A DNA stretch of 64,000 nt, from contig VMGJ01000003.1 of the NCBI GenBank assembly GCA_007376485.1, forward strand, positions 81,252-145,251, given 5' to 3'. The number at the start of each line of letters is the position of its first letter. Positions within the stretch are counted from its first letter, which is position 1. A program made the translations under genes and the position numbers. This DNA comes from Parcubacteria group bacterium Licking1014_17. Its GTDB lineage: Bacteria; Patescibacteriota; Minisyncoccia; 2-02-FULL-40-12; IGHO2-01-FULL-4-A. Positions 6,095 through 59,873 of the stretch are shown here, in pieces. Below the pieces are notes generated by a model. It was not told where the DNA came from, did not search any database, and saw only the letters and a program-made list of their open reading frames with translations.

Positions 6095-7272
6095 TAATAA
6101 TATCTTAACGCTTCCAGGGCGGGCAGTTTTTCGCCGCCCAAGAAAATCAGCATTGCTCCTCCGCCGATTGAAACAAAACTGTATTTTTTCAGTAAGCCGA
6201 GTTTTGTAACTTCGCTGATTGTGTCTCCTCCGCCGATAATTGAATTTTTGGCGGCCGCCACAGCTTCCGCGATTTTCCGTGTCCCCTCCGCGAATGCCTC
6301 GGTCTCCGAAAGCCCCATCGGCCCGTTCCAGATAACCATTCCTGCTTTACCGATAAAATCTGCGTACTTCGCGGCGGTTTTCGTGCCAATGTCTAAAATC
6401 ATTTCCTCGCCCGCCACCTTGTCCGCGTCTTTTATTTCGGCTTTGGAAACTGCGAGCGTATCGGGAGCCGTTACCACGTCTTCGGGAATAACAACTTTAC
6501 TCATATCCAAACCCTCCAGTGAATTTATATCTTCCGCGTCAATTAAAGATTTCCCGACTTCCAGCCCTTTAAATTTTAGAAAATTATTAGCGAGCGCTCC
6601 ACCGATTAAAATCCGCTCGGCTTTATCTAGAAAATGTTTTACCACCGGCAGTTTGGTGGAAATTTTCGCTCCGCCGAGAACCAAAACCTTGCCTTCAGCC
6701 GGCGCCTGAATCGCCCGCGAGAGATTTTCTATTTCGTCCTTCATCAAAAATCCAGCGTAAGAATCAATATATTTTGTTATCGCCGAAACCGAAGCGTGCT
6801 TTCTGTGGGCGACGGCGAATGCGTCATTTACGTAAAAATCAAAGCCCTTCGGCTCACTTCGTTCGCTCAGGGCAGGCCCTTTGGCCAGTTGTTGGGCAAA
6901 GGCATCATCATTTTTTTCTTCGCCTTCATGTCTCCTGACGTTCTCCAATAAAACAAAATTGTGCTCATTTAGAGCTTCGACGACAGCAGGACCAACACAA
7001 TCAGAAACAAAAAATATTTCCTTGCCGAGAATTTCCGATATTTGACTTACAATCGGGCTGAAAGTTTCTATGTCAGTGATGTGGGATAAAAGCGCGACTT
7101 TCGCCCCGGCACCTAATAGATAATCTATTGTTTTCTGAACCGCCTGCACCCGATAGTCGCTTGAAATCCTGCCGTGTTCCACCGGTAAATTAAAATCCAC
7201 CCGAACGAGGATTTTTTTATTTGAAAGCTCCGACTGCGGCAGAGAGTCAATATATTTCATAGTTAAAATCAT
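6094..7272 (-). CDS. pgk: Phosphoglycerate kinase
   Basis: KKILVRVDFNLP N-terminus and a glycine-rich C-terminal domain. The real start is probably the Met at MKYIDS. Confidence 0.9.
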   Translation of the reverse strand: MILTMKYIDSLPQSELSNKKILVRVDFNLPVEHGRISSDYRVQAVQKTIDYLLGAGAKVALLSHITDIETFSPIVSQISEILGKEIFFVSDCVGPAVVEALNEHNFVLLENVRRHEGEEKNDDAFAQQLAKGPALSERSEPKGFDFYVNDAFAVAHRKHASVSAITKYIDSYAGFLMKDEIENLSRAIQAPAEGKVLVLGGAKISTKLPVVKHFLDKAERILIGGALANNFLKFKGLEVGKSLIDAEDINSLEGLDMSKVVIPEDVVTAPDTLAVSKAEIKDADKVAGEEMILDIGTKTAAKYADFIGKAGMVIWNGPMGLSETEAFAEGTRKIAEAVAAAKNSIIGGGDTISEVTKLGLLKKYSFVSIGGGAMLIFLGGEKLPALEALRYY

Positions 7273-8264: not shown

Positions 8265-8648
8265 AAAAACAACCCTTTAAGCCCCCCCCCCAAGATCTTA
8301 CCCTTACTTCAAAAGATAAAAGATATGTATTTATTGTGGTATGAATACTATCAGGTATTACCCAAACCGCATAGATATACTCTCGGTCAAAGAATTGATT
8401 ATTTGCTGGTAGAAATCATAGAAGCAATAGCTACTGCCGCTTTTTTGATGCGTGAAGAAAAAATACCGTATGTTCGTTTGGCAGTCAGGAAAGTTGATGT
8501 TTTGAAAATACTCTTAATGATACTTTGGGAAACCAAATCTCTGGGCGATAAAAAATATATAGCCCTCTCATTAAGAATTGACGGGATAGGCAAAATGCTC
8601 GGCGGTTGGCATGGCCAGCTACAAAAACAAAACTCCCCTGCTAAATAG
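8244..8648 (+). CDS. avd: Avd-like accessory protein (four-helix-bundle / 23S-IVS protein family), divergent from the RT
   Basis: 134 aa carrying HRYTLGQRI...IGKMLGGW, characteristic of the PF05635-type bundle. It starts MSQFDFHKNNPLSPPP, with the PPP encoded by a C10 tract. Confidence 0.8.
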   Translation: MSQFDFHKNNPLSPPPKILPLLQKIKDMYLLWYEYYQVLPKPHRYTLGQRIDYLLVEIIEAIATAAFLMREEKIPYVRLAVRKVDVLKILLMILWETKSLGDKKYIALSLRIDGIGKMLGGWHGQLQKQNSPAK

Positions 8649-8668: not shown

Positions 8669-8803
8669 TTTGCGACGGGTGAATACCCAGCGGTCGTTGC
8701 CATTCCAGAAGTTATCAGGGTTGCCGTTGTTACCGTTGAGCCACAGGTCATCGTCATTGCGTTCGACGTTGAACACCTTGAGGTTGCCGTCCGAGTCCGT
8801 AAT
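8669..8803 (-). repeat. DGR template repeat TR1
   Basis: 135 bp, identical in register to 9137-9271 except for at least 24 positions. Every one of those is T on the plus strand, that is A in the minus-strand template. In the VR frame it encodes AAC-rich NGNNGNPDNFWNGN. Confidence 0.85.
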
Positions 8804-9057
8804 ATGTACAAGATACCTCCCTTGTCACCACCCCTTGAATACTCTTGGGGTTGTATCGTATTCGGCATCGTAATGCCATAGTATCTTATACCAAGTAGCT
8901 TCATTTTTTGAAGTATCTATATACACCACTCTATCTGAAACCGTAATCGCAGATATTCTCGATGTATGGATACTGGGTTCGGTAGTTGGAAACCTTGGTC
9001 TCCATCATATTCACCTACTGCCGTTTCCATTTTACACGACAAATGCACAAAACAAAA

Positions 9058-32467: not shown

Positions 32468-33571
32468 CTATTTCTCTTCTGTCTTTTCCGTTTCTGCCAC
32501 CGCTTTTTTGATGCCGACTATGATATCTTTCTCCACTTTTGGATTATCTTTCAGGAATTGGCGGGCGCCGTCTATGCCCTGCCCGAGTTTTTCTTTGTTG
32601 TAGATAAACCAGCTCCCGGACTTTTCAACCACGTTGAAGGCTACGCCGGTATTCACCACGTCGGCCTGTTTTGAAATGCCCTCGTTGTATAAAATATCAA
32701 ACTCGGCGGTTCTGAACGGCGCGGCGACTTTATTTTTCACGACTTTTACTTTCACCCTGTTGCCGATGATTTTTTCTTTTGACTGGATTTGAGCCGAACG
32801 GCGGATTTCAATTCTGACGGACGAATAAAACTTCAGCGCCAAGCCGCCGGTGGTGGTTTCGGGATTGCCAAACATTATGCCGATTTTTAGGCGGATTTGG
32901 TTTATGAAAACAACAGTGGTGTTTGTCTTGGCAATAATGGCGGTGAGTTTCCGCAAAGCGTGGGACATCAGCCGCGCCTGCAAGCCCATGTGCTGCTGGT
33001 CCATTTCGCCTTCAATTTCGGCGCGGGGTGTCAGGGCGGCGACGGAATCAATGACAACCAAACTGACTCCGCCGGAGCGGACAAGGGTTTCGACAATTTC
33101 CAGCCCTTGCTCTCCGGTGTCCGGCTGGGAAATAAGCAAATCCCCGATTTTCACTCCGATTTTTTTGGCGTATTCCGGGTCAAGGGCGTGTTCGGCGTCA
33201 ACGTAAGCGGCAACTCCGCCTTGTTTTTGGGCCTCGGCGACAAGATGCAACGCCAAAGTCGTTTTGCCGGAACTTTCCGGTCCGTAGATTTCAATGACCC
33301 TTCCTCTCGGCACTCCGCCGACGCCGAGCGCGAGGTCAAGCGAAATTGAGCCTGTCGGTATTACGTCAACGTCAACTTTCTTGGCATCGCCAAGCTTCAT
33401 TATTGACCCCTCGCCGTATTTTTCCTGAATCTCCCGAACGGCAAGGTCAATACTTCGACTACGCTCAGTACTTGCGGTACTTCGGCTGTGCTCAGTACCT
33501 GCGGCTCCCTTATTTATCACAGTTTCGCTCTTCGCTTTGACTTCTTCTTTTTTTGTTTTTTCTTTAGGCAT
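32468..33571 (-). CDS. recA: Recombinase RecA (with a low-complexity N-terminal extension, or an over-called start)
   Basis: GPESSGKTT Walker A and conserved RecA L1/L2 regions. Confidence 0.95.
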
Positions 33572-33591
33572 ATATTACTTTTATCTTATCA

Positions 33592-34590
33592 CTATATCAT
33601 CGGATTCCCCAAATTGGCAATAATTCCCCTAAGTTTGAAAGTATTCCCATGTTTCAATAGCCCCAAATATGAATTGACAGTTTCTGTTCTCGGATTTGCC
33701 TTGATTCTTTTCAATATTCTTCTTTTTGTTGACGTCCTCAAAATCCTGTGATTTGGGAAAGTAATCCAGCCGAGAAAATCAATGCCCGAAGAAAGAGTCT
33801 TAATAAATATCTTTTGGGGATGCAATCTTAAATTTAATTTTTGTTCCAGATATTCGCTAACTGGTTGGATAATTTGTTCAAGCCATGGCTTATTTTCGGA
33901 CAAAATCACAAAATCATCGCAATATCTTATGTAATAGCGAATTTTCAGTTTGTGTTTAATAAATTGGTCAAATTCATTCATATAGACATTCACCAAAAGC
34001 TGCGAAGTCAGATTGCCGAGCGGCAGACCGATGCCGAAGTAGCCCGAACTGAAACTGCCAATAACTTCCTTTAACAACCAAATAATGTTTTCATCGGGAA
34101 TATATCTTGAAATGATTTTCAATAAAATCGTATGGTTAATATTGGCAAAGAATCTTCGGATGTCGCATTTCAAAACCCAGCAGGTTCTTGTGTTGTTCCG
34201 GCTGACTTTACGCGCAAAATAACGAAAACGATTTATAGCTTTGTGTGTGCCTTTATTTAATCGGCAGGAAAATGAATCGGAAATAAACGTTCTATTAAAA
34301 AATGGATACAATATCCGGTAAACCGCGTGGTGCAACAGCCGGTCACTGACGCTTGCCTTGTGAATATTCCTCGGTTTCGGGTCGCAGATATTGAATGCTT
34401 GATAATCGCCATGCCTATATGTATGATTTACCAAATCTCGGTGTAATTCCAAGATATTGTCCATTAAATTAAACTGGAATTCCTGAACGTCCCGCCTGTG
34501 TCTTTTGCCCCGCAGAAATTCTTTCCATGCTTCCAAAATGTTCTCAATACTGATAATATCTTCAAAATTATGAGCCAATTTGATTTTCAT
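33592..34590 (-). CDS. DGR reverse transcriptase (cassette 2). The ORF track extends it to 34767, but the homologous start is MKIKLAH at 34590
   Basis: About 88 percent aa identity to RT1, with the same YCDDF and LGNLTSQ motifs. Confidence 0.85.
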   Translation of the reverse strand: MKIKLAHNFEDIISIENILEAWKEFLRGKRHRRDVQEFQFNLMDNILELHRDLVNHTYRHGDYQAFNICDPKPRNIHKASVSDRLLHHAVYRILYPFFNRTFISDSFSCRLNKGTHKAINRFRYFARKVSRNNTRTCWVLKCDIRRFFANINHTILLKIISRYIPDENIIWLLKEVIGSFSSGYFGIGLPLGNLTSQLLVNVYMNEFDQFIKHKLKIRYYIRYCDDFVILSENKPWLEQIIQPVSEYLEQKLNLRLHPQKIFIKTLSSGIDFLGWITFPNHRILRTSTKRRILKRIKANPRTETVNSYLGLLKHGNTFKLRGIIANLGNPMI

Positions 34591-34982
34591 AAAAATAGCC
34601 CTATAAGCCCCCCCCCAGGGTTTCGTTGCCGATATTACAAAGGTTGGTTTCGGCATACAAGCTGTGGCATGAACATCTGTCGCATTTTCCCAAAACCTCA
34701 CGATATACGCTCGGCGGGAAAATTGACAGCTATTTTGTAGACGCCGTCGAAGCGATTCACACCGCAAGTTATCTTGGCAAATCAGAGAAACTCCCTTGGA
34801 TCAGGCGCGCGATAACAAAACTTGATGATCTGAAATTCTTTTTGCAAATCGCTTGGGAACTCAAGGTATTGGATAACAAAAAATACATAGCACTTTCCGA
34901 GCCGCTGGCCGAAATTGGCCGAATGCTGGGCGGATGGATGCGGCAAACGGAGTCGGCAAAAACAAAACCGAACCTGTTATAG
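34498..34982 (+). CDS. avd: Avd-like accessory gene (cassette 2). It appears frameshifted at a C9 tract. The N-terminus MSQFDFHKNSPISPPP (frame A) and the body from 34626 (frame -1) are rejoined by one extra C
   Basis: The body carries SRYTLGGKI...IGRMLGGW. The poly-C is at 34608-34616. Confidence 0.7.
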
Positions 34983-35002
34983 GTTCGGAGAAACTTTGCT
35001 TA

Positions 35003-35126
35003 CTTGCGGCGAGCGAGGAACCGGCAGTCGCCGTCCCACTTGTTACCGAGGTAATTGAGGTTCGCGTTCCGCTCGTTGGCGTTCCTGTAGACGTACACGA
35101 CGTTCCGGTTGCCGTTGCGGTCCTGC
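35003..35126 (-). repeat. DGR template repeat TR2
   Basis: At least 17 mismatches to 35478-35602, all at plus-strand T (minus-strand A) positions of the TR. Confidence 0.85.
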
Positions 35127-35384
35127 TGTGTGCACGGTACCATCTATGCCACTATCCTTTGAATACTCTCGGGACTGAATCGTATTTGGGAGCATAACTC
35201 CGCCAGTACCGTACACCAAGTAGCTTTGTTTTTTGAGATACTGTGAAAATCACTGGCCGGAGGCGTACCCACGGCCACTCCGTTTTACGCAGTTCTGGAA
35301 TTCGGCCGTTTGCAGTCGTAACCGCAAACATATCAGCCTATTATCCGTGATTTACTATACTCACTATTTTCAAAAATGAAAGAG

Positions 35385-35420
35385 CGCCTCGTCCGGAAGA
35401 CCCGAACGAGGCGCAAGAGT
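35385..35420 (-). terminator. Hairpin plus T-tract about 65 nt downstream of VR2 (the target 2 terminator, or a homing hairpin)
   Basis: gcgcctcgt...acgaggcgc stem followed by TCTTTCATTTTTG on the minus strand. Confidence 0.45.
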
Positions 35421-35468
35421 CCAAGGCACTCAAGATCTTGAAGACCTGAGCGCGCAAGGACCCAAGGA

Positions 35469-36113
35469 CTACTTCTGCTTGCGGCGAGCGAGGAACCGGC
35501 AGTCGCCGTCCCACTCGCCACCGAGGTAATCGAGGGACGCGCACCGCTCGTCGGCGTGCCTGCAGACGAACACGACGCACCGGCTGCCGTGGCGGTCCTG
35601 CCAGTGCTGGCCGATGGCCGGGATCGGGAACTCCCGCTGGAGCTCCGGCTTCTCGGCGCCGACGGTCAAGTCCTCGTAGGCGTCGGCGGGCTCGAGGTCG
35701 AGCTTCGCCAGCTCGGTGAGCACCTGCTCGTCGCTCATGTCTCGCCCGAAGTGGACGAGGACGAGGTCGCTCTTGACCCTGCCCTTGAGGCGCGGCGGGA
35801 AGTTCTTGGCGTTGACGTTGCCGTTCTTCCAGTCGTACTTCCCACGCTTGAGCAGATCGGCTATGTCCTCGTCGTAGTCGATGACGTGGCAACCGAGCTT
35901 GGTGATCGTGGGGTCAGGGTAGATCGGGGCGAGGCCGAGGACCTTCCGCAGGGCGTTGCGCTCGGGCAACGTTCCCTGCTTCGAAGCCTCAATCACGTCG
36001 GCGACGATTCCGCTATCGAGCAAGTCCGCCTGGAACTTCTCCACAGTCAGTCCCTTGTCGTTGGCAAGCCGGACAACTTCATTTCCTTGGGCGAGCGTCA
36101 CGTTGTTGGCCAT
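35469..36113 (-). CDS. DGR variable (target) protein 2. It is cytoplasmic and 214 aa. The whole gene is markedly GC-rich relative to its neighbours
   Basis: SD GAAAGGAGGG before the ATG. The C-terminus ...CRHADERCASLDYLGGEWDGDCRFLARRKQK is encoded by VR2. Confidence 0.8.
   Translation of the reverse strand: MANNVTLAQGNEVVRLANDKGLTVEKFQADLLDSGIVADVIEASKQGTLPERNALRKVLGLAPIYPDPTITKLGCHVIDYDEDIADLLKRGKYDWKNGNVNAKNFPPRLKGRVKSDLVLVHFGRDMSDEQVLTELAKLDLEPADAYEDLTVGAEKPELQREFPIPAIGQHWQDRHGSRCVVFVCRHADERCASLDYLGGEWDGDCRFLARRKQK
35478..35602 (-). repeat. DGR variable repeat VR2
   Basis: See TR2. Confidence 0.85.
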
Positions 36114-36382
36114 GACACCCTCCTTTCCTTTGTGGCTATGGAACCACCATAAGCTCCGACGGAATGTCGGTACTCACAGCGTTCCGGTTGCTGATTTTGC
36201 AGGTAAAATCAAGGTACTATGATACCCTATATTATACTAAACTTTACGACAAAAAGCAAGGACACAAAACCCCTCATTCTATAAGGGTTTTTTAATATAA
36301 AGCGAGTCATTATGCTTTGAGGGCTCAAAAAGCACAATAGCGAGACCGCCTAAATTTTGCTTCACAAAACTTGAGCGGGCTT

Positions 36383-36530
36383 GCCAATATGCTTTTTGGG
36401 GCTGTTGAGATTGCCGCTGGTACGGTTTTGTCAATGGCTGAACGAAGTGAACGCCTTGACAAACAGCGGTAATCTCACCAGATGAAATTTTCTCGCTGGG
36501 GAAATTTCAGTCCCCAAAAAGCATATTGGC
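36383..36530 (+). ncRNA. Structured element copy C (three-way-junction family)
   Basis: P1 is gccaatatgctttttgggg / ccccaaaaagcatattggc. P2 is tgagattgccgctg / cagcggtaatctca with a G-T wobble on the plus strand. P3 is tgaaattttc / gaaatttca with the conserved loop tcgctgg. Stems covary with copy A. Confidence 0.4.
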
Positions 36531-48546: not shown

Positions 48547-48983
48547 ATGTTTTTTATTACACGGCAAACAATGTCGCCTTAATGGCAACAGAATAAATTG
48601 GACACTCAACCTTGTAAGGAAATACAGACGATCTATTAGTAACTCTTGGCTCAAAGCCTTGCGGCTCTTACACCTGAGTCCTATCAACGTGGTAGTCTTC
48701 CACGGATCTGCGAAGCCTAATCTTGGGGCCCGTTTCGCGCTTATATGCTTTCAGCGCTTATCGGAACCGAACATAGCTGCCCAGCGCTGCCCTTGGCAGG
48801 ACAACTGGTAGACCAGAGGTTCGTTCATCCCGGTCCTCTCGTACTAGGGACAACCCCCCTCAAGCTTCTAACGCCCACACCAGATAAGGACCAACCTGTC
48901 TCACGACGGTTTGAACCCAGCTCGCGTACCCTTTTAATTGGCGAACAGCCAAACCCTTGGCAGCTTCTTCACCGCCAGGATAG

Positions 48984-49862
48984 GGCGCACATTTATCTTC
49001 TATTACTAGAAGTGCAGACTATATCTTCTCCCGTCTTCCAATCGAAAGGTGGGAGTTGGCGTATTATAGCAGTTAAAAAACTGCTATCCTCTCGCAATAG
49101 CGAGAAAGTCGTTACGGGGTAAGAGAAACTTTATACAATAGACTATCTAAAATATACGGCTTGATGATTTCACAAAACTTTTGCGATGATCTTTCCGGAA
49201 TATATATGTTGAATGTTTTACCCTTTTTATGGATTGCCGCTACGATTCCGAAATTCATCTTCAGACAATCCACTAGCATTTGCTGTTCTTGATACGAAAA
49301 TATATCCGTATTAAGTCTCAGCGCATTACAATCGTTCCGTTTATATCCGTCGTCCATTACCCAAACCGCCAGCGATAATGGTTCAATAAGAATTTCTTGA
49401 ATATTATCAGGAACTATTTTGATTCTATTCTTGTAAAACATATCCCGCCATTCCTGAAATATTCCGTTTGAACATGTCGAGAAATGTAACCGCCTGTATT
49501 CTTTATTCTCTTTCTTGTGGAACGAAGTGATAACTCTGGGCTTACTTGGCACAAGGTTTTTAAATACTTCATATTTCCATAATACATACTCCTTCTGTGC
49601 CATGCCGTGGTCTACTTTTAGACGCACGCCCTTGCCATTTTGCTCCAGATGCCCGTCGCCGAGCATTGTTCCAATTAATATCGCTTTTTGTGTTGCCGTT
49701 AATAGCATACTGTATAAAGCCTCTCCTACTTCCCACGATATTATCCTATCATAGCTGGGTAGCCTCTAATAGGACTCCATCGTTATTAGCCAACGTTGCA
49801 AGTTTATTTCTTAAAAGACACAAACTTGCCAACTCGAATTACTTCGAGTACGGCCCGTTTTG
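48984..49862 (-). mobile_element. Intron-like insertion (putative group I intron) in 23S domain V. It interrupts GATGTCGGCTCA | (T)ATCCTGG and carries a LAGLIDADG gene
   Basis: The exon sequence is contiguous with E. coli-like 23S on both sides, and the boundaries were located by eye. Confidence 0.6.
49112..49708 (-). CDS. LAGLIDADG homing endonuclease (two-motif, monomeric type)
   Basis: [11 protein letters not shown] and [10 protein letters not shown] motifs. Confidence 0.85.
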
Positions 49863-50172
49863 TTGAGCCGACATCGAGGTGCCGAACACTGCCGTCGCTA
49901 TGGACGCTCGGGCAGTACCAGCCTGTTATCCCCGGAGTAGCTTTTATCTGATGATCTTCCCCGTTCCTACGAACAAGGGTCGGTTCACTAACACCTGCTT
50001 TCGCATCTGCTTGACACATCCGTCTCACAGTTAAGCCGGCTTATGCGTTTGCACTATCGCTCCGATTTCCATCCGGAGCTAGCCGACCTTCGTACGCCTC
50101 CGTTACTCTTTAGGAGGCAACAGCCCCAGTTAAACTGCCCGCCAGACACTGTCTTGATGGCACCCTAGAAGG

Positions 50173-50474
50173 GGACGAGTAAACTCGTCCGAGCATCCTG
50201 TAATATTCGTTCAAATATCACAGGATGTTATAGATTATGAGCATTAAAGAATCTAATCTCATTTTTTTGATCGCTGATACAGGTCAGAAAGAGTTTTTCA
50301 TCCCCAAAACAAAAGGGTTGTAAACTCCTGTCGCCTATGTTTTTCAACACCGCATTGGCGACATGTTTCTCTAGATCCGAACTTTCAAAATCAAACTTTA
50401 TCTGCTGTGTTCGGACTTCTGGCCCGCCTTCACATTTATTAAAGTGAAGTTTCAGAAGTATCATTTTATTTCCT
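50173..50474 (-). other. About 300-nt insertion in the terminal loop of a 23S domain-V helix. The arms are ggtggcaccctggaagg and ccttctagggtgcc. It contains an SD-led ORF plus two 3' hairpins
   Basis: The helix arms are perfectly complementary and flank the insert, and the equivalent E. coli helix is a short hairpin. Confidence 0.5.
50228..50464 (-). CDS. Small ORF of 78 aa from the SD-proximal ATG, embedded in the 23S helix-loop insertion
   Basis: GGAAGGAGGAAATAAA-ATG. The ORF ends just before two stable hairpins. No recognisable domain. Confidence 0.4.
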   Translation of the reverse strand: MILLKLHFNKCEGGPEVRTQQIKFDFESSDLEKHVANAVLKNIGDRSLQPFCFGDEKLFLTCISDQKNEIRFFNAHNL

Positions 50475-50770
50475 CCTTCCAGGGTGCCACCAGTTAGAAT
50501 TACAAATGACAAAGATGGGTGTTTCATTGGCGGATCCACGCCTCCCGAAAGAGGCGCTTCAAATCCTCCCCACTACGCTACGCATTGCCGCTCGTAACCC
50601 AATATCAAGCTACAGTAAAGCTTCCGGGGTCTTTCCGTCTTGGTGCGGGTAGTCAGCATCTTTACTGACATTGCATTTTCACCGGGCTAGTGGCTGAGAC
50701 AGTCCCCCAGTCGTTACGCTATTCATGCGCGTGGGAACTTACCCCACAAGGTATTTCGCTACCTTTGGAC

Positions 50771-51522
50771 AGTTCATTCTTTTTATTAGTCTCGGCGGAT
50801 TCAATAAACTCGCCACCGGACAGCCTCATAGTCGCCTATGAGATCGGACTCTATCTTATCGCAATTTTTTGCGATTCTGACGTATTAGTCTCTGGGGATT
50901 CTCGAGATTTTTGGTAATCAGAAAGAGAATATTTTCGCTTCCTGCCCTTACCTTCATTTAACTTCTCTCTTAATTCAATAATTTTTTCAAGACCCTCACG
51001 GGTAAAATGTTTGCCATTCGAGATGGTCTCAACGATTCTTTTGAATATCGAGAAGTTTGTTTTCTTTGAAGATGATAAAAAATTATATCTTTCAAAGAAT
51101 GGCACAATGATATCTCTCAATGAGTTTAGATTATTCACTGAATAATTCCAAACTCCATCTTTTCTTAACTCTAACCTTCCTGCCCCGAAATGTTTTTTCA
51201 TTAACGCCAGGACTGTCTGATCTCTTTGAGCCACATTGAAGGTCAAATAGATTTTCCAGCCAAAGCGGTAGTCATTCCTGGGAATTAACGAAACATTGAA
51301 GCTACCTTCACCATCCACAAAACCGGTAAAATACCAAGCTGTCGAGATGGGAATTTGTTTAATAACTTCTTTCATTTTGTTTAGAGTCTCGAGTCTTTCC
51401 TGCGGATTATCTGCACTGATGTTTTATTACTGATCTTCGACGTTCGGATCTAGTAACATCAGATACTAACCAGACTTTCCCGCATATAGTCAGATTTTAC
51501 AACTACAACTGTCGTTATAGTT
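50771..51522 (-). mobile_element. Intron-like insertion (putative group I intron) in 23S domain IV at the helix-69 region. It interrupts GGTAACTATAACG | GTCCAAAGGTAGCG, near E. coli position 1917, and carries a LAGLIDADG gene
   Basis: Exon junctions were read directly. Confidence 0.6.
50851..51375 (-). CDS. LAGLIDADG homing endonuclease (single-motif, homodimeric type)
   Basis: FTGFVDGEGSF motif. Confidence 0.85.
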   Translation of the reverse strand: MKEVIKQIPISTAWYFTGFVDGEGSFNVSLIPRNDYRFGWKIYLTFNVAQRDQTVLALMKKHFGAGRLELRKDGVWNYSVNNLNSLRDIIVPFFERYNFLSSSKKTNFSIFKRIVETISNGKHFTREGLEKIIELREKLNEGKGRKRKYSLSDYQKSRESPETNTSESQKIAIR

Positions 51523-52554
51523 ACCGCCGTCGTTCACGGGTGCTTCGGGCATCTGCAATGAGCTTGCGCCCACCACTTCAACCGTTAACATTCCCGCACC
51601 GGACAAGCGTCACCCCGTATACATCCTCTTTCGAGTTAGCACGGAGTTGTGTTTTTGATAAACAGTCGCCAGGGGTCTTTCGCTGCGTCCGCGCTTGCGC
51701 GCGGAAGGCCTTATCGCTAACTTACGGCCGCTTTTTTGCCGAGTTCCTTAGCCACTAATCACCCGTTCGCCTTGGTACAATCATACCGGTCCACCTGTTT
51801 CGGTTTTAAATACGTACCCAATCCTTTTGTCTTTAGAAGTTTTTCTTGGAAGCGCGCTCCCTTGAATTTCACCTTGCGATGATTTCCACAACGCTTGGGT
51901 TTCGCACTGAAGCGGCGACACGGATTTGCCAATGTCGCACCCTTACGCCATGAACGCAAATCCTTAATGCGCTCAGGGTACTGCATTTCGTCTCTCCATC
52001 AGAAAGGACCGGGGGGCCGGAATATTAACCGGCTATCCTTCGGCCTCCCCCGCCCGCAAGCGGGGTTATCCTTAGGCACGCCTAACCCTCCGTTGATTGT
52101 CATTGCGGAGGAAATCTTGGACTTTCGGCGAGAGGGGTTTTCACCCTCTTTGCGGTTACTCATCCGAGCATTCTCTCCTCCAAGCGCTCCAGCATGTCTC
52201 ACGGCACACCTTCACTGCGCTTGAAGTGCTCCCCTACCGTATGGAGACTTCGTAAAGGACTTAAGAATAAAAATTCTTAAGAAAAAAAAATGGACGGCGA
52301 GGAAGTAACTATGGTATCCAGGCACCACCAAGGACTTGCCCGGTCCCGGAACCCCACTTTTATACGTGAGGTTCTTAAGTTGGACTTTTAGGGAGCAGTA
52401 GCCATGGTTTAGCGGTCCGCGATAGTTAACTTCCTCGCTTATTTTTCCTTTACGAAATCTCCACACCCACGCATTCGGTACTATGCTTAGCCCCGTTGAA
52501 TTTTCGGCGCATCTTGCCTCGCACGGCCGAAGCCGTGTATCGAATAGTAAGCTG

Positions 52555-52596
<42 letters not shown>

Positions 52597-53227
52597 TATC
52601 TGTCTAAGGCAAAACACTTCCTTCTGTCACTTAGCATAGATTTAGGGACCTTAAGCTGTGGTTAAACGGCTATTCCCGTCGCGACCGTGAAGCTTTGCCC
52701 CCACGGTCTCACTACCGGTCATTACGCCGCGGTATTCAAAGTTTGGTTGATAATCCTACCCAGAGGGCACAGAAAATCATCCAGAGCTTTACCCCCGCGG
52801 TTACTAACCGGCGCTGCCCCTAAAGGCATTTCGGGGAGAACCAGCTATTACCGAGTTCGATTAGCTTTTCACTCCTACCCGCAAGTCATCCGATGATGTT
52901 GCGCTATCAACCAGTTCGGGCCTCCATCCGCCTTTCGGCGAACTTCACCCTGCTCACGGGTAGCTCACCCGGCTTCGGGTCTTTTACAAGCTACGTACAC
53001 ACATATATAAACCGAGGTGCAAACTCACCCGGTTTATATAGATGTGAGTCGCGCTATTAACACTTGGTTTCCCTTTGTCTCCGCCCTGTCGGGCTTAGAC
53101 TTTGCAACTTGTAAAAACTCGCTCGGTCATTCTTCAATAGGCACACCGTCGCCCCTTCGTCTTGCGACGAAAGAGTTCCGGCTCTTTGTAGGCATATGGT
53201 TTCAGTTACTATTTCACTCCCCTCACC

Positions 53228-53270
<43 letters not shown>

Positions 53271-54292
53271 ATCATCAAAAGTATTTAGTCTTGGACCGTA
53301 GTAGGCCCGGATTCACCACGGATAGTCTCGTCCATGGTTACTTAGGTAAAGAGACTTTCGCCTCAATAATACGTAGAGTTCGGAAATTTTCGCTTACGGG
53401 GCTATCACCCTCTTTGGCCGGCCTTTCCAGGACCGTTCTGCTAACCGCCGAATTTGTAACTCTATTTATCTTTGGAGCACAGCTTTCAGCCTCCCATGCC
53501 TCATGGCAGTGGAAGCTGGTCGCCGTGCAGATAATTGTATTATCCCTGCAACACCCGTTTATGTACTTTTAGGTACGAACAGGTTTAGACTATTGCCCCT
53601 TTCGCTCGCCACTACTTGGGGTATCGCGAACAACAAACGCCTGTATGCCTTGCGGCACACGGGTGTTCATTGTTACGTTCGCTTTTTTTTCCTCTGGGTA
53701 CTGAGATGTTTCACTTCCCCAGGTACGCCTCCCGGCTTGCGCCGGAATCACCGCATGTTACTGCAGTGGGGTTTCCCCATTCGGACATCTCCGGATCAAA
53801 GCCCGCTAGACGGCTCCCCGAAGCTTATCGCAGTCACGCCACGTCCTTCATCGCCTTTTGATGTCAAGGCATCCTCCATACGCCCTTGTTATGCATTTCC
53901 TTACAAGGTTGAGTTTCCAATTCCTTGTAGTACTTCCGATACCAAAGCCGCATCTTCTTATACCAGAAGTTCTAATCAGACTTAATTGTTAAAATTCTTG
54001 CCTTTTGCTCCCTGCGGCTGGCTCCTTAAAGAGGCAATCGTAGGAGGCTCTCCTTCGCCGAAAACGTATCATGGCTTCGGGGGAGTGGGCAAATTAGACT
54101 TAAAAACCGCGTCCGGCGCGGCTGTTTTGAATCGCTTCAAGTTAAAAATCAGCACCAGCCGCTTGTTTTTATAAGTCTATTGTATTTGGTATTCATTTGT
54201 CTTTGGTAATTGTAGCAGAACCCAACCTACGGAGTCAATACGTATGTTGATAAGGCGTTGATATCGCTAAGGACATCTTCAGACGGCGCGCC

Positions 54293-55282: not shown

Positions 55283-57337
55283 TCAAATCAAAAATCTCGC
55301 TATCAGCAGCGCCACGATGTTTGCTACCTTAATCATCGGATTGATCGCCGGTCCCGCCGTGTCTTTGTAGGGGTCGCCGACTGTGTCGCCTGTCACCGCC
55401 GCCTGGTGGGCGGGGGATTTTTTGCCGCCGAAGTTCCCTTCCTCAATATATTTCTTGGCGTTGTCCCAGGCGGCGCCGCCGGAAGTCATTGATATTGCCA
55501 TAAACAAACCGGTGATAATTACGCCAACCAACAGACCACCCAACGCTTGTGGTCCCAGCAGAAAGCCGACAGCGATGGGAATTACGATTGGAATCAAGGC
55601 GGGGATTATCATTTCTTTCAAAGCCGCCCTGGTAACAATATCTACCGCCGCCGCGTAATCGGGTTTTCCCGTCCCCTCCATTATGCCGGCGATTTCCCTG
55701 AACTGCCGGCGCACTTCTTCAACTATCGCGCTACCGGCTTTGCCCACCGCCTTCATCGCCATCGAGCCGAAAAGATAAGGCATCATGCCGCCGATTAATA
55801 AACCGATTAAAACCGAAGGGTTAGTCAAATCAAAACTGATGGGCGCTCCGGCGCCGGCAAATTCTTGGGTGTAAGCCGAAAACAAAACCAGAGCCGCCAG
55901 TCCCGCCGAGCCGATAGCATAACCCTTGGTTACCGCCTTGGTAGTATTACCCACAGCGTCCAACGGATCCGTCGCCTGCCTTACTTCTTCCGGCAGGTTA
56001 GCCATCTCGGCGATGCCGCCGGCGTTATCCGTAATGGGACCGAAAGCGTCAATTGCCAAAACTATCGCCGCCAGCGAAAGCATGCTCAAAGTAGCCAGCG
56101 CCACTCCGTACACGCCGACAAAAATATATGAGCCGAGTATCGCCGCGCAAATCACCACCACCGGCCAGACCGTTGACCGCATGGAAACCGCCAGCCCGGC
56201 GATGATATTTGTGCCGTGCCCGGTCTTGGATGCTTCGGCAATCCCCCGCACCGGTGAGAATTTTTTTGAAGTGTAATAATCCGTAATCCAGAAAATCAAG
56301 CCGGTAACCGCCAGTCCTATTATCAGGGCCAGAAATATTCTATAGCCGGCGATTTCGCCCAGCACCGGTTTCCAGACCAACGTCACGTAAAAAGAAGCGA
56401 CAGCCAGTATCGCTGTAAGAATCAGTCCCTTGTACATTGAACCCATAATACCCCCGTTCGGCCCATTCGATGGACTCAGGGCAGGCAGGCTCGGGGCAAG
56501 CACCTTGGGACCCAATTTTACAACCAGCGAACCTACAATTGACGCCAGCACGCCGATAGCGCCGATAAAAAGCGGAAAGGTAATTATATTCGCGATTGAA
56601 GAATAAAGTAGATTGCCCAGAAGCATTACCGAAATCGTAGAGACCAGATAAGTTTCAAAGACATCCGCCGCCATGCCTGCTGTGTCGCCGACGTTGTCGC
56701 CTACGTTGTCAGCAATGACCGCCGGATTGCGCGGGTCGTCTTCCGGAATTCCGGCCTCAACTTTGCCGACCAAATCCGCGCCGACATCCGCGCCCTTCGT
56801 GTAAATCCCCCCGCCAAGGCGGGCAAAAACCGAAATCAGCGAACCGCCAAAGCCCAAACCAATCAAGGCGGTTACGTCTTTAGTGAACCAATAAAATAAA
56901 GTCAGAACCAGAAGCCCGAGGCCGACCACGAAAAAGCCGGTTACCGCCCCGCCGCGGAAAGCCAGATTGAAAGCGTTGACGATGCCCGATTTTGCCGCTT
57001 CCGCTACCCGCACGTTCGCCCGCACCGCCACAAACATCCCGATATAGCCGGCGAGCGCCGAAGCCGCCGCGCCCACAATAAACCCAATTGCCGTGGTTAC
57101 GCCCAGAAATATATACAGGATTATCGCTACCAAAATGCCGACGACGACTACGACCTTATACTGCCTTTTCAGATAGGCATTCGCTCCTTCGCGGATTGCC
57201 TGCGAGATGGACTTCATCTTTTCATCCCCCTGCGGTTGTTTCAAAACGTTAAGTATCAAAACCGCCCCGTAAACCAGCGCCGCCAGAGCCGACGCCAAAG
57301 AAAAAATTAAAATAGTCATATGGATTAAAACTAACAA
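55283..57337 (-). CDS. hppA: Membrane-bound proton/sodium-translocating pyrophosphatase
   Basis: [14 protein letters not shown] and other V-PPase signature segments, about 16 TM. Confidence 0.9.
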
Positions 57338-58356
57338 ATAGATATCTTTTTTTCCAGTTTTGACTCCATCGCTTTCTGAATATTATAACCGCAACAATGT
57401 TTCAAAACTCCCAGATAAGATTGTAAGTTATCGGTGTTAACTTTTTTCAAAATTCTTCTTCTTGTTTTTGTTCTCAAATTTACGCAGTATGGTCTGACAA
57501 TATAACCCAGAAAATCAATTCCCTGCCGGTATTTTCTAATGATAATTTTTTGCGGATGAAGATTTAATTGTAATATATTATTCAGATAATTGCCGACTAA
57601 AAACGATAATTCGTATAAATAATTTTTATCTTCGCTTAAAATAATAAAATCATCGCAATATCGGAGATAAAATTTCAATTTCAGATGGTGTTTTACAAAC
57701 TCATCCAACTCATTCAAGTATATATTCGCGAATAGCTGGCTTGTCACGTTGCCGAGTGGTAATCCTTTGTCAATATCTTTTTTAAAACTACTAATAATAA
57801 CTCCCAACAGCCAGAGTACGTTTTCGCCGTGAATCTTTCTTTTTATTAGACCAACTAGAATTTCGTGATCTATCGAATCAAAAAATCTCTTGACATCGCA
57901 TTTCAAAGCAAAAATATTCCTGCTGTTGTTTCTGCTCAATTTGCGGCAAAAAGATTTTAATCTCCTGATTCCTCTATACGTGCCTTTTCCCAGCCGACAA
58001 GAATAAGAATCAAAAATAAACCCAGCATCAAAAATTGGATAAAGAATCCTGAAAACGGCGTGATGCAGGATTCTATCTCTAACTGTGGCCTTATGAATGT
58101 GCCGAAGCTTTGGGTCAGTGATGCAAAAAGATTCGTATGGTGAGTGCTGATAAATCTTGGCTGATAGTTGATTGTGTAACCCAAATAGGTTATCTTCCAG
58201 ATTAAATTCGAATTCTAAAATGTCGCGTCTCTTCTTCTTTCCACGCCTAAATTCTTTCCACGCTAAAAACAAATTTTCCAAACTGATTATTTCTCCAAAT
58301 AAATCATGACTCTTATAAGCCCCCCCCCAAAAAAAAACTCCATACCTTTGATTCAT
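57331..58356 (-). CDS. DGR reverse transcriptase (cassette 3). The start is ambiguous, and the ORF as drawn reads through a T9/G9 homopolymer
   Basis: RYCDDFIIL and LPLGNVTSQ motifs. Confidence 0.8.
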
Positions 58357-58671
58357 AGTATTTGCGATTTATACAGGAAAATATATCTTGTCGGACTTAA
58401 AATCCCCAAAAGAGACAGGCTGGGAATTTGCGCAAAAATTGAATCTATATGCCTTGATTTAATAAACTTACTAATTTCAGCCGCTTTTGAATCTAAAGAT
58501 AGGAAATTGTCTTTTCTTACTATTGCTCGTGTTAAAACAGAAATTCTAAAAAGATTGGTCCGGCTTGCGCATGAAATTGACGTAATCAAATCAGTTAATT
58601 ATATAGAATTGGAATCGCAATTGCAGGAAATATCAAAAATGATAAATGGCTGGATCAAATATTTAAAGTGA
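58306..58671 (+). CDS. avd: Avd-like accessory protein (cassette 3)
   Basis: 121 aa, [10 protein letters not shown] encoded by a C9A9 tract, with a C-terminal ...EISKMINGWIKYLK. Confidence 0.8.
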   Translation: MTLISPPPKKNSIPLIHSICDLYRKIYLVGLKIPKRDRLGICAKIESICLDLINLLISAAFESKDRKLSFLTIARVKTEILKRLVRLAHEIDVIKSVNYIELESQLQEISKMINGWIKYLK

Positions 58672-58700
58672 GAAAAACTCCCTAAGGAGTTTTTCTCACA

Positions 58701-58824
58701 AAACTACCTGACGGGCACGGAGGTTGTCGTTGGCATTGCCTGTGTTGTTCCAGTTCACGTTGACCTTGTCATCGCTGTTCCGATACATGTTTGGCACGTC
58801 GCCATCCTTGTTGCGAGAACCCGC
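58701..58824 (-). repeat. DGR template repeat TR3
   Basis: 124 bp at a constant offset of 410 from VR3. At least 20 mismatches, all at plus-strand T positions of the TR. It is AAC-rich in the VR frame. Confidence 0.85.
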
Positions 58825-59034
58825 CTTGGTACCTGACCTCATCTTTCCCACCGAAAATCTTGGAAAAATTTTCTGTGTTGGCTGGCTCCATGGCCAGAAT
58901 TATTCAAGAAACATCTCTAGTTAGAGAATCTTCACCAAGATCAGGCACGTAGTTTCTCTGTTTCAGGCAAACCGCTATCCACTTGGGATCGGTTATAATA
59001 GCCGGGTCTATTCTACAAAAATATAGCAAAAAGA

Positions 59035-59066
59035 GAAAGGCCCGCATCAGTCAGCCACTGCGGGCC
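59035..59066 (-). terminator. Hairpin plus T-tract downstream of target gene 3
   Basis: aggcccgca...tgcgggcct stem followed by TTCTCTTTTTGC on the minus strand. Confidence 0.45.
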
Positions 59067-59102
59067 TTATAAAAAGCGAACGAGAAAAAAGGAATAAGAG
59101 AA

Positions 59103-59873
59103 CTACAGAGAAACTACCTGACGGGCACGGAGGCGGCCGCTGGCAAGGCCTGTGAGGTCCCAGCTCACGTAGACCCTGACATCGCTGCCCCGATACATGA
59201 CAGGCACGACGCCATCCTTGTGGCGAGAACCCGCACATAAAGTTACGTTCTTATTGTCGAGATGGCCACTGGTCTTCCAATTGAACCATCGCCCAAGAAG
59301 AAGCCTTTCAAGAAGATTTATACTATTGATTTTCTTCTCCGCGACCCAACTGGCGGAGAGATTCTTGAGCTCTTCGTCAGCCTCTACGCGGTCACGCGTC
59401 CAGATAACGTAGGGCTTGCCGACGGGCATCCTGACGTTTTTTGTGACGACTTCATCCAAATTAGCATCACAAAATTTCCATTTCTCCGGGAACGAATCGA
59501 AAACCATCTGCATTGTCACACCGGGAACAACCAGCACACCCCAATTAAAACCGGGGGTTACTGGGGGCAGGGGAATTTGCGATGTTTTTCGGATTCTGAT
59601 GTTAAGCGCCTCCTTATAGAAATCCGCCCAGTCCTTCAGGAAGGATTTAACATCCAGCCCCGAGGTGGCATAGGTGATGCCTCCGTTGTCCTGATTAGTG
59701 GCTGTAGTTACGTCACCAACCAGTACGATTTCTGCCTCGCCGCGAAGGGCTTTGAGATGTTGACTGGCAATATTGCCACCACTCAGCTTTTTCACGTCTT
59801 CTGGCGTCCACCCCCCACGCTCAAAAGCGTGATCCAGCTCGGCTGCCTGTCGACTTGTCATAATTGATCCCAT
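59103..59873 (-). CDS. DGR variable (target) protein 3. It is cytoplasmic and 256 aa
   Basis: SD AGGAGA before the ATG. The C-terminus ...GSRHKDGVVPVMYRGSDVRVYVSWDLTGLASGRLRARQVVSL is encoded by VR3. Confidence 0.75.
   Translation of the reverse strand: MGSIMTSRQAAELDHAFERGGWTPEDVKKLSGGNIASQHLKALRGEAEIVLVGDVTTATNQDNGGITYATSGLDVKSFLKDWADFYKEALNIRIRKTSQIPLPPVTPGFNWGVLVVPGVTMQMVFDSFPEKWKFCDANLDEVVTKNVRMPVGKPYVIWTRDRVEADEELKNLSASWVAEKKINSINLLERLLLGRWFNWKTSGHLDNKNVTLCAGSRHKDGVVPVMYRGSDVRVYVSWDLTGLASGRLRARQVVSL
59111..59234 (-). repeat. DGR variable repeat VR3
   Basis: See TR3. Confidence 0.85.

What the first reader, a model, noticed from the sequence alone, without database searches (positions are those of the whole stretch)
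33592..36113. Complete DGR number 2 (TR 35003-35126, VR 35478-35602)
It has the same organisation as cassette 1. RT2 is about 88 percent identical to RT1. At least 17 TR/VR mismatches are all adenine-specific. The target is a different 214-aa cytoplasmic protein ending ...DCRFLARRKQK.
Basis: partly seen in the sequence, partly recalled or inferred. Interest (0 to 1): 0.75.

Follow-up and report, generated by a model that had tools for sequence, protein, structure and literature searches.

The report
Complete diversity-generating retroelement, cassette two
This is an intact diversity-generating retroelement of the kind already known from ultra-small (CPR) bacteria, which rewrites the tip of a small lectin-fold protein. 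The element is ordinary for these organisms, but comparison with about 100 relatives showed a conserved folded RNA in front of the template and a conserved G-run in front of the reverse transcriptase that I could not find described.

Summary
TR (35003-35126) and VR (35478-35601), both read on the minus strand, are 124-nt repeats. They have 16 mismatches, every one at a TR adenine.

The cassette is complete:
- a 214-aa target with the VR at its 3' end
- a GC-rich hairpin after the VR
- the TR
- an Avd gene on the opposite strand
- a DGR-type reverse transcriptase of 332 aa, not the 391-aa ORF

About 100 related loci added three points:
- A covarying RNA domain of about 105 nt (helices P0-P3) directly abuts the 5' end of the TR.
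- A conserved G9-G12 tract lies between the divergent avd and RT start codons.
- Target genes are systematically GC3-rich.

None of these three was found in Rfam or in the papers I could read.

The parts
33592..34590 (-). DGR reverse transcriptase (332 aa, starts MKIKLAH)
   Evidence: Pfam RVT_1, E 1.2e-23. The best solved relative is 8ub7_A, E 1.4e-42, against 1e-22 or weaker for group II and retron RTs. It is 85% identical to RT1. The LPLGNxTSQL and RYxDDF motifs are invariant across 12 lineage RTs.
34608..34616 (.). Homopolymeric tract: C9 on the avd strand, G9 on the RT strand. It lies in the 35-nt gap between the divergent avd and RT start codons.
   Evidence: Sequence. A G7 or longer tract is present upstream of the RT in 48 of 71 independent metagenome loci, and G9-G12 in 39 of 71. 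About 1.5% of control windows have one.
34626..34982 (+). avd accessory gene (118 aa, TTG start), on the strand opposite to RT, TR and target
   Evidence: Pfam bAvd, E 1.9e-13, above its cut-off. NCBIfam DivGenRetAVD, E 1.4e-20, 73.5 bits against a cut-off of 80.
34958..34988 (-). Stem-loop (8 bp, CCGAACCU/AGGUUCGG) followed by UUUUGUUUUU, 14 nt after the TR. It overlaps the avd stop codon.
   Evidence: Terminator scan. A hairpin plus T-run lies within 60 nt of the TR end in 17 of 25 lineage loci, against 4% of control windows. In DGR2 the U-tract pairs with the A-rich leader in the unconstrained fold.
35003..35126 (-). Template repeat (TR), 124 nt with 31 adenines. It has 8 AAC and 1 AAT codons in the target frame.
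35131..35235 (-). Structured RNA domain directly 5' of the TR. Components: A-rich leader 35235-35220; P1 35215-35205 with 35141-35131; P2 35201-35198 with 35192-35189; P3 35175-35171 with 35158-35154.
   Evidence: RNAalifold finds compensatory changes in 21 of 22 pairs. Pair counts are 91.6-95.9% paired against 73-75% in shuffles and 33-50% in slid controls. The covariance model scores 117 bits here.
35384..35414 (-). GC-rich hairpin (14 bp counted by the scan, 10 of them G-C, 3-nt loop) followed by a T-rich run, 63 nt after the VR. It is a candidate target-recognition hairpin and/or terminator of the target gene.
   Evidence: z -5.5 for the 161-nt region. An equivalent long hairpin plus T-run follows the VR within 120 nt in 19 of 27 lineage VRs, against 9% of controls.
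35478..35515 (-). IMH-like segment: the last 38 nt of the VR, G+C-rich and identical to TR 35003-35040. The flanks diverge immediately after it.
   Evidence: Alignment.
35478..35601 (-). Variable repeat (VR), encoding residues 171-212 of the target
35469..36113 (-). Target (variable protein) gene, 214 aa: an N-terminal helical region followed by a C-terminal C-type-lectin/FGE-like domain

Best explanation
Cassette 2 is a chromosomal diversity-generating retroelement of the CPR lineage. It has Wu et al.'s architecture B3, target/VR - TR - (avd, reverse strand) - RT, and probably belongs to Roux et al.'s clade 2.

Shown directly:
- All parts are intact.
- TR and VR differ only at TR adenines.
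- The variable codons sit in the last 43 codons of a lectin-fold protein.

Inferred by homology with the Bordetella phage BPP-1 system:
- The TR is transcribed on the minus strand.
- The RT-Avd complex reverse-transcribes the TR and misincorporates opposite adenines.
- The cDNA replaces the VR. Homing is guided by the 38-nt invariant GC-rich 3' segment and the downstream GC hairpin.
- 17 codons (27 adenines) are mutable. This gives up to about 2e16 DNA variants and 6e15 protein variants of a ligand-binding surface. Only one of these codons can mutate to a stop.

Inferred from my comparison of about 100 related loci:
- The template RNA is a discrete unit. It consists of an A-rich leader, a three-helix domain (P1-P3) whose closing helix P1 ends 4 nt before the TR, the TR itself, and a stem-loop with a U-tract.
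- The leader pairs with sequence just 3' of the TR (helix P0), so both TR ends are clamped.
- I propose that this 5' domain does the job of the 3' 'spacer' RNA of BPP-1: RT binding, and a stop for cDNA synthesis at P1. In this layout the space 3' of the TR is taken by the convergent avd gene.

The ligand and the cellular role of the target are unknown. It is most likely a soluble binding protein.
For: TR/VR pair:
- 16 of 16 mismatches fall at TR adenines, and 0 of 93 non-A positions differ.
- 12 of 17 mutable codons are changed, all non-synonymously, and the TR carries 9 AAY codons.

RT and Avd:
- The RT matches Pfam RVT_1, and its best solved relative is 8ub7_A at E 1.4e-42.
- Avd matches Pfam bAvd and NCBIfam DivGenRetAVD.

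Sequence elements:
- A 38-nt GC-rich invariant 3' segment is shared by TR and VR, and a 14-bp GC hairpin follows the VR.

Target:

Architecture in relatives:
- 24 target genes at 23 genome loci show the same target - TR - (avd) - RT order.
- Avd is on the opposite strand in 70 of 71 metagenome loci.

Activity of the lineage:
- Orthologous loci L010 and L025 have TRs 98% identical, while all 20 VR differences fall at TR-adenine positions.
- Across 65 TR/VR pairs, about 60% of TR adenines are mutated and 0-3% of non-A positions in the core differ.

Template RNA:
- 21 of 22 pairs of P1-P3 carry compensatory changes.
- 95% of cells are paired in an independent set of 62 hits, against 73% in shuffles and 34-50% in slid controls.
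- The motif is found in 56 of 58 loci fetched by RT homology alone that have room for it.
- In 38 of 40 of those loci the TR/VR homology starts at the motif's 3' end.
- P0: own-locus duplexes beat cross-locus ones in two sets, 0 of 20000 permutations each.
Against: - No population data. The A-to-N pattern of TR2 found nothing in metagenome contigs, and the target's 90% cluster has one member. Ongoing activity of this particular copy is therefore inferred only from the clean mismatch pattern.
- Avd scores 73.5 bits against NCBIfam's cut-off of 80. It starts with TTG 9 nt after a C9 tract, with no obvious Shine-Dalgarno sequence.
- In DGR2 the usual leader-linker pairing (P0) is not evident: -4.1 kcal/mol, no better than cross-locus pairs. 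Only an alternative pairing with the U-tract is predicted.
- The GC hairpin lies 63 nt from the VR, not adjacent to it as in BPP-1.
- The functional reading of the 5' RNA domain is analogy only.
- If transcription reads through the stem-loop, an antisense-avd 'spacer' 3' of the TR could still exist.
Confidence: 0.9

Rival explanations
1. A recently inactivated (relic) DGR. The parts are still recognisable but the cassette no longer diversifies, and the VR is frozen in its last state.
For: - The P0 leader-linker pairing typical of the lineage is disrupted in DGR2.
- Avd has a TTG start behind a C9 tract. The upstream ATG (34571) that is in frame with Avd in cassette 1 is out of frame here.
- Avd scores below the NCBIfam cut-off.
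- No VR variants were retrievable.
Against: - 0 of 93 non-A positions differ between TR and VR, so there has been no drift since the last homing event.
- The RT has no frameshift or stop and keeps the lineage's invariant catalytic motifs.
- A TTG start 5-9 nt after the tract is the commonest arrangement in the lineage.
- An alternative P0 with the U-tract is predicted at -11.7 kcal/mol.
Confidence: 0.08
2. Not a DGR. The RT belongs to a group II intron, retron or defence RT, and the 124-nt repeat is an ordinary duplication or gene-conversion tract.
For: The best NCBIfam hit of the RT is the group II intron RT/maturase model, at 141 bits.
Against: - That hit is far below its 300-bit cut-off.
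- Rfam finds no group II intron or retron RNA in the window.
- The closest solved RT is 8ub7_A, 20 orders of magnitude ahead of group II and retron RTs.
- An Avd gene is adjacent.
- The exclusively adenine-specific mismatches are not expected from duplication.
Confidence: 0.01
3. The DGR assignment is right, but the conserved 5' RNA domain is not a functional substitute for the BPP-1 spacer. It could be a 5' UTR, stability or regulatory element of the TR transcript. The true RT-binding and priming elements would lie 3' of the TR, in the stem-loop and in RNA antisense to avd, as in the canonical model.
For: - A survey of 278 Avd-containing DGRs, which included CPR DGRs, predicted Avd-binding stem-loops just downstream of the TR in 207 of them (bioRxiv 10.1101/2023.10.23.563531).
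- Such a stem-loop exists here.
- TR, antisense avd and RT are on one strand, so read-through is possible.
Against: - In 17 of 25 loci the stem-loop is followed by a T-run like an intrinsic terminator.
- Sequence antisense to avd is constrained by protein coding.
- P1 abuts the start of the TR/VR homology in 38 of 40 loci. P0 links the leader to the 3' end of the TR. Both point to a role tied to the template boundaries.
Confidence: 0.3

Closest known systems
CPR (Patescibacteria) DGRs: architecture B3 of Wu et al. 2018 (PMC5758913) and DGR clade 2 of Roux et al. 2021 (PMC8144416)
   Same: - TR-(avd)-RT with avd on the reverse strand, and the target upstream on the RT strand.
- Chromosomal, in a Parcubacteria genome.
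- The target has no recognisable transmembrane or conserved domain.
   Different: Nothing in the gene-level anatomy differs. The papers I could read do not describe the 5' TR-leader RNA domain, the G-tract or the GC3 bias. Paul et al. 2017, the primary CPR DGR paper, was not available.
Bordetella phage BPP-1 DGR (mtd-avd-TR-brt), the mechanistic prototype
   Same: - Adenine-specific TR-to-VR information transfer.
- VR at the 3' end of a C-type-lectin-fold protein.
- A GC-rich IMH-like segment and a downstream GC hairpin.
- An Avd plus RT pair. The RT's best PDB match is 8ub7_A, a 328-aa 'Reverse transcriptase'. I believe this is bRT from the cryo-EM series 8ub7-8ube, but that identification is from memory.
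   Different: [quoted passage not shown]
- There is no room for a 140-nt non-coding spacer 3' of the TR. Instead a covarying domain of about 105 nt lies 5' of the TR.
- The hairpin is 63 nt from the VR.
- The element is cellular rather than phage-borne, and the target is not a tail fibre.
Treponema denticola TvpA and other lectin/FGE-fold proteins, including Bdellovibrio Bd2740 C-terminal domain
   Different: - Sequence identity is 6-11%, and there is no Pfam FGE-sulfatase or lectin match.
- There is no lipoprotein or secretion signal.
- Foldseek is not significant.
RT-10 motif and BPP-1 spacer RNA (Weinberg et al. 2017, PMC5737381; Handa et al., bioRxiv 10.1101/2023.10.23.563531)
   Same: - A structured non-coding RNA flanks the TR.
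- A duplex next to the 5' end of the TR resembles the 'cPRT Stop' duplex.
- There is pairing between sequences upstream and downstream of the TR, and a stem-loop right after the TR.
   Different: - The domain lies on the other side of the TR, 5' rather than 3'.
- No Rfam 15 family matches this region, even at E up to 10.

Membership tests
Diversity-generating retroelement (DGR) | A TR/VR repeat pair whose differences are (almost) only at TR adenines | tested here: met
   16 of 16 mismatches fall at TR adenines, and 0 of 93 non-A positions differ.
Diversity-generating retroelement (DGR) | The VR lies at the 3' end of a protein-coding gene, with TR adenines in codon positions 1 and 2 (AAY codons) | tested here: met
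   The VR encodes residues 171-212 of 214. The TR has 8 AAC and 1 AAT codons. All 12 changed codons are non-synonymous.
Diversity-generating retroelement (DGR) | A DGR-clade reverse transcriptase with intact catalytic motifs next to the TR | tested here: met
   RVT_1, E 1.2e-23. Best solved relative 8ub7_A, E 1.4e-42, full length. LGNxTSQ and YxDD are conserved. No curated DGR-RT model was available, and the NCBIfam hits are all below their cut-offs.
Diversity-generating retroelement (DGR) | An accessory variability determinant (Avd) | tested here: met
   Pfam bAvd, 51.3 bits against a cut-off of 40. NCBIfam DivGenRetAVD, E 1.4e-20 at 73.5 bits, just under its 80-bit cut-off.
Diversity-generating retroelement (DGR) | An IMH-like GC-rich 3' boundary shared by VR and TR, and a GC-rich inverted repeat downstream of the VR | tested here: met
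   A 38-nt invariant GC-rich end is followed by divergent flanks. A 14-bp GC hairpin lies at 35384-35414, 63 nt downstream of the VR. The hairpin is conserved in position in 19 of 27 relatives.
Diversity-generating retroelement (DGR) | Demonstrated mutagenic retrohoming: VR variation within a population, or experimental evidence | tested here: inconclusive
   No variants were retrievable. There is only indirect support from orthologues L010 and L025, where all 20 VR differences fall at TR-A positions.
Architecture B3 / CPR DGR lineage | Order TR-(avd)-RT with avd on the reverse strand, in a CPR genome | tested here: met
   The definition is from PMC5758913. RTs from 80 metagenome loci are 58-69% identical to RT2, and avd has the same arrangement in 70 of 71 loci examined.
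C-type-lectin-fold DGR variable proteins | A CLec/FGE-like fold with the VR forming the C-terminal strands | tested here: met
Rfam RNA families, including the RT-associated motifs of Weinberg et al. 2017 | A match of the TR-flanking RNA to a curated covariance model | tested here: not met
   Nothing reaches gathering score in the window except rRNAs and RNase P. There is nothing meaningful at E up to 10 in 34900-35500.

The most novel reading that the evidence does not exclude
CPR-type DGRs use a permuted template RNA. A conserved 5' three-helix domain (P1-P3) and a leader-to-3'-flank helix (P0) would replace the 3' spacer of the BPP-1 paradigm as the RT-binding and boundary-defining scaffold. 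A slippage-prone G9-G12 tract between the divergent avd and RT starts would act as an on/off or tuning switch for hypermutation. Neither feature appears to have been described.
Probability: 0.35. Interest if true: 0.65.

Novelty: new member of a known kind. Interest (0 to 1): 0.4.

Why it matters
As a DGR, this adds one more example to a well-documented class. CPR bacteria are known to be rich in DGRs, and three cassettes in 64 kb of a small genome fits that picture.

The comparative by-products matter more:
- **Template RNA.** CPR DGRs are a large DGR lineage. No CPR DGR is among the experimentally studied elements in the papers I read. A defined template-RNA architecture (P0-P3, TR, stem-loop) says exactly which RNA to synthesise to reconstitute one. 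It also tests whether the BPP-1 'spacer' logic is universal or can be permuted.
- **G-tract.** This is a cheap, testable candidate for regulating when hypermutation is switched on.
- **Targets.** The target families of cassettes 1 and 2 are large (7504 cluster representatives, and 1426 database hits). They have no Pfam match and no signal peptide, yet share one lectin-like scaffold. This bears on the open question of whether CPR DGR targets act inside the cell.

Tried and rejected
- **VR variants in metagenomes.** A scan of metagenome contigs with the TR2 pattern (every A replaced by N) gave 0 hits, so there is no population evidence.
- **Fold searches.** The afdb50 library was unavailable. 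Foldseek against the PDB gave no significant hit.
- **Single-sequence hhalign.** Targets 1 and 3 against the target-2 profile were not significant. Only the profile-profile comparison with the target-1 family worked.
- **Pseudoknot.** An AUAC/GUAU pairing inside the RNA domain is only 69.8% paired and mostly conserved, so it is not supported.
- **First leader pairing test.** My first test of the leader against the 3' flank used wrong leader coordinates and gave z about 0. I redid it with alignment-derived leaders.
- **GC-rich target as adenine erosion.** I tested whether the GC-rich target reflects adenine-specific erosion by RT acting on the mRNA. This is rejected: A3 and T3 are equally depleted and C3 is enriched.
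- **GC-rich target as recent transfer.** Recent horizontal transfer into this genome alone is unlikely, because the bias recurs in most of the lineage loci examined.
- **First avd-start analysis.** My first analysis of avd starts relative to the C-tract was flawed by the extent of the HMM alignment. I redid it.
- **Literature.** Paul et al. 2017 (Nat Microbiol) could not be read.
Full report
**1. Observation**

The region holds one direct-repeat family, 35003-35126 and 35478-35601, 124 nt at 87% identity. Read on the minus strand, the two copies differ at 16 positions. In every case the 35003-35126 copy has A, and the other copy has G (9 times), T (4) or C (3). None of the 93 non-adenine positions differs. 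The template has 31 adenines. If mismatches fell at random on the 124 positions, all 16 hitting adenines has a probability of about 2e-10 (my arithmetic). The template with every A replaced by N matches only these two places in the window and none in shuffles.

- There are 16 mismatches, not at least 17.
- RT1 and RT2 are 85% identical in protein, not 88%.
- The VR ends at 35601.
- The RT starts at ATG 34590 (332 aa), not at the TTG of the 391-aa ORF.

**2. Anatomy**

On the minus strand, 5' to 3':
- The target gene, 36113-35469 (214 aa). Its last 43 codons are the VR.
- Two hairpins. The second (35414-35384) has a 14-bp stem with 10 G-C pairs, followed by a T-rich run.
- A conserved RNA domain, 35235-35131.
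- The TR, 35126-35003.
- A stem-loop with a U-tract, 34988-34958.
- The RT, 34590-33592.

[quoted passage not shown] It matches Pfam bAvd above its cut-off and NCBIfam DivGenRetAVD at E 1.4e-20.

The RT matches RVT_1. Its closest solved relative is 8ub7_A, a 328-aa 'Reverse transcriptase', at E 1.4e-42 over its full length. Group II intron and retron RTs reach only 1e-22. From memory, 8ub7-8ube are the Bordetella phage bRT-Avd-RNA structures. Rfam finds no group II intron or retron RNA in the window.

In the target frame the TR reads WQDRNGNRNVVYVYRNANERNANLNYLGNKWDGDCRFLARRK. It has 8 AAC and 1 AAT codons. 12 of the 17 adenine-containing codons in the mutable part are changed in the VR, all non-synonymously. 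Only one of these codons can mutate to a stop. The theoretical repertoire is about 2e16 DNA variants and 6e15 protein variants. The last 38 nt of TR and VR are identical and G+C-rich, after which the flanks diverge. This is an IMH-like boundary.

Cassettes 1 and 3 have the same layout.

**3. Source and context**

The target is 100% identical to hypothetical protein CEN90_406 of the MAG 'Parcubacteria group bacterium Licking1014_17', on a 163.5-kb contig. The cassette sits between ftsK and recA. It is therefore chromosomal and not in an obvious prophage.

**4. Relation to what is known**

Wu et al. (PMC5758913) define architecture B3 as TR-(avd)-RT with avd on the reverse strand. They state that it accounts for 90% of their CPR set. 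Roux et al. (PMC8144416) describe a cellular, CPR-restricted DGR clade 2. Its targets typically lack any recognisable transmembrane or conserved domain.

Cassette 2 fits both descriptions. The same target - TR - (avd) - RT order is seen for 24 target genes at 23 genome loci fetched through the target family. Avd is on the opposite strand in 70 of 71 metagenome loci fetched through the RT alone. So the inverted avd, which at first looked unusual, is the published norm for this lineage. Cassette 2 is a new member of a known kind.

**5. The target**

The target has no Pfam or NCBIfam family. It has no hydrophobic segment (maximum Kyte-Doolittle 19-residue mean 0.65) and no signal-like N-terminus.

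A word-indexed search found only 17 relatives. A full profile search found 7504 cluster representatives at E up to 1e-3 and 1597 at E up to 1e-30, mostly about 200 aa. In the species-representative genomes they are almost all in Patescibacteria.

- dozens of C-type lectins

Only 7 of 38 metagenome DGRs of this RT lineage carry a target of the target-2 family. The RT/avd/RNA module is thus combined with several target families.

**6. Evidence for activity**

No VR variants of this copy could be retrieved. The absence of any non-adenine difference argues for recent homing. In the lineage, orthologous loci L010 and L025 have TRs 98% identical, while all 20 differences between their VRs fall at TR-adenine positions. 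Across 65 TR/VR pairs, about 60% of TR adenines are changed, against 0-3% of other bases in the core. Cassette 2 is typical, with 16 of the 26 adenines upstream of the invariant end changed.

**7. A conserved RNA domain 5' of the TR**

Aligning the 140 nt upstream of the TR in 26 loci showed a conserved block ending at the TR. RNAalifold on 24 sequences predicts three helices:
- P1, 11 bp, which closes the domain. In DGR2 its 3' strand ends 4 nt before the TR.
- P2, a 4-bp hairpin.
- P3, 5+2 bp.

21 of the 22 pairs carry compensatory changes. Pair counting gives 91.6% of cells paired, against 73.5% in column shuffles (0 of 500 reached it) and 33-48% when partners are slid.

A covariance model built from this alignment found 31 hits in 754 kb. 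All lie between a target gene and a TR, with none elsewhere. In the window it scores 117 bits (DGR2), 109 bits (DGR1) and a weak 19.9 bits (DGR3).

As an independent test, I fetched 80 metagenome loci by RT homology only. The model hit 56 of the 58 loci that have room for the motif, always about 540 nt upstream of the RT. There, 95.4% of cells are paired and 21 of 22 pairs have compensatory changes. A conserved U-G pair shows the structure belongs to the TR-sense strand. In 38 of 40 of these loci the TR/VR homology begins at the motif's 3' end.

The A-rich leader just 5' of P1 pairs with the U-rich linker just 3' of the TR (helix P0). Compensatory variants include AAAUAAAGA/UCUUUAUUU, AAAUGAAGA/UCUUCAUUU and AAAGUGAAGA/UCUUCACUU. 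Own-locus duplexes are stronger than cross-locus ones in both sets: -6.4 against -3.8 kcal/mol, and -7.0 against -5.0 kcal/mol. In each set, 0 of 20000 permutations reached the observed value.

In DGR2 itself the linker pairing is not evident. Instead the leader pairs with the U-tract after the stem-loop, at -11.7 kcal/mol.

A stem-loop with a T-run follows the TR within 60 nt in 17 of 25 loci, against 4% of control windows.

No Rfam 15 family matches the region.

In BPP-1, the elements that bind RT and Avd, prime, and stop cDNA synthesis lie in a 140-nt spacer 3' of the TR, plus 20 nt upstream of it. The published survey of other DGRs examined only 40 nt upstream and 100 nt downstream of the TR (bioRxiv 10.1101/2023.10.23.563531). 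My reading is that this lineage places the scaffold 5' of the TR, with P1 as the analogue of the 'cPRT Stop' duplex. This is analogy, not a demonstration.

**8. Other lineage-wide features**

*G-tract.* A homopolymeric tract lies in the 20-35 nt between the divergent avd and RT start codons. It reads G on the RT strand and C on the avd strand.
- It is C9 at 34608-34616 in DGR2 and G10 in DGR1. It is absent in DGR3.
- Among 71 independent loci, 48 have G7 or longer and 39 have G9-G12, against about 1.5% of control windows.
- Close relatives differ in length: L010 has G14 and L026 has G10.
- In most loci avd starts, usually with TTG, 5-9 nt after the tract, as in DGR2. In DGR1 the only in-frame start is upstream, so the tract is coding there.
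- A slippage-based switch is a hypothesis only. I found no paper linking DGRs to homopolymer tracts.

*GC3 bias.* The target gene is far more GC-rich than its surroundings.
- In DGR2, GC3 is 0.90, against 0.56-0.57 for ftsK and recA and 0.43 for the RT.
- The bias recurs in most of the lineage loci examined.
- It reflects C3 enrichment, with A3 and T3 equally depleted. It is therefore not adenine-specific erosion.
- It remains unexplained.

**9. Verdict**

The finding is real and correctly interpreted: a complete DGR of the known CPR type, probably recently active, in a public genome. On its own it is of modest interest. The template-RNA domain, the G-tract and the GC3 bias are lineage-wide observations that deserve a check against the primary CPR DGR literature and a simple experimental test.

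Noticed in passing
window 35131-35235 (-); also 8794-8923 (-) and weakly 58816-58980 (-); loci L007-L161: A covarying RNA domain (P1-P3, plus leader helix P0) lies directly 5' of the TR. It is present in 56 of 58 related DGR loci that have room for it, and it is absent from Rfam 15.
   Followed up: yes
window 34608-34616; cassette 1 near 8280-8292; 48 of 71 metagenome loci: A conserved homopolymeric G/C tract, usually 9-12 nt, lies between the divergent avd and RT start codons. Its length differs between close relatives. Its relation to the avd reading frame differs between DGR1 (coding) and DGR2 (just upstream of a TTG start).
   Followed up: partly
window 35469-36113; target genes of about 23 related loci: Target genes are much more GC3-rich than host genes and than the RT. 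In DGR2, GC3 is 0.90 against 0.56 and 0.43. The enrichment is mainly in C3. It is not adenine-specific and is unexplained.
   Followed up: partly
window 48616-53900 (-): The 23S rRNA match spans 5285 nt for a 2925-position model, so the gene carries about 2.3 kb of insertions. These are probably introns, as reported for CPR rRNA genes. The RNase P RNA at 3915-4389 is also longer than its model.
   Followed up: no
window 7269-7272, 57331-57337, 33571-33592: Each RT gene ends at, or overlaps, the start of a housekeeping gene on the same strand: pgk by 4 nt, an H+-pyrophosphatase-like ORF by 7 nt, and recA after a 20-nt gap. This suggests co-transcription with host genes.
   Followed up: no
L001:8001-9681: Two tandem paralogues of the target-2 family, with bodies 98% identical and divergent C-termini, sit in a high-GC contig. 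They lie next to CBASS-like genes (CD-NTase, Cap15) and a type I restriction-modification system. No RT or TR lies within the 3.4 kb available downstream.
   Followed up: partly
loci L002-L081: Only about 30 of 80 genomic loci encoding a target-2-family protein have a TR or RNA motif nearby. The others may be served in trans by a distant DGR, or may not be diversified.
   Followed up: partly
L010 and L025: Between these orthologous cassettes the TR is more conserved (98%) than the non-variable body of the target gene (90%).
   Followed up: no
window 57331-59873 (cassette 3): Cassette 3 is the outlier. Its RT is only 52% identical to RT2, the 5' RNA motif scores 19.9 bits, there is no G-tract, and the post-TR hairpin lacks a clear T-run.
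   Followed up: no
window 36326-36398: A 34-nt inverted repeat (76% complementary, 5-nt spacer) lies between the target gene and ftsK.
   Followed up: no
L082:1529-1608 (-): A partial hit of the RNA motif lies on the strand opposite to the RT, at the contig end. This may be a second, oppositely oriented DGR cassette.
   Followed up: no
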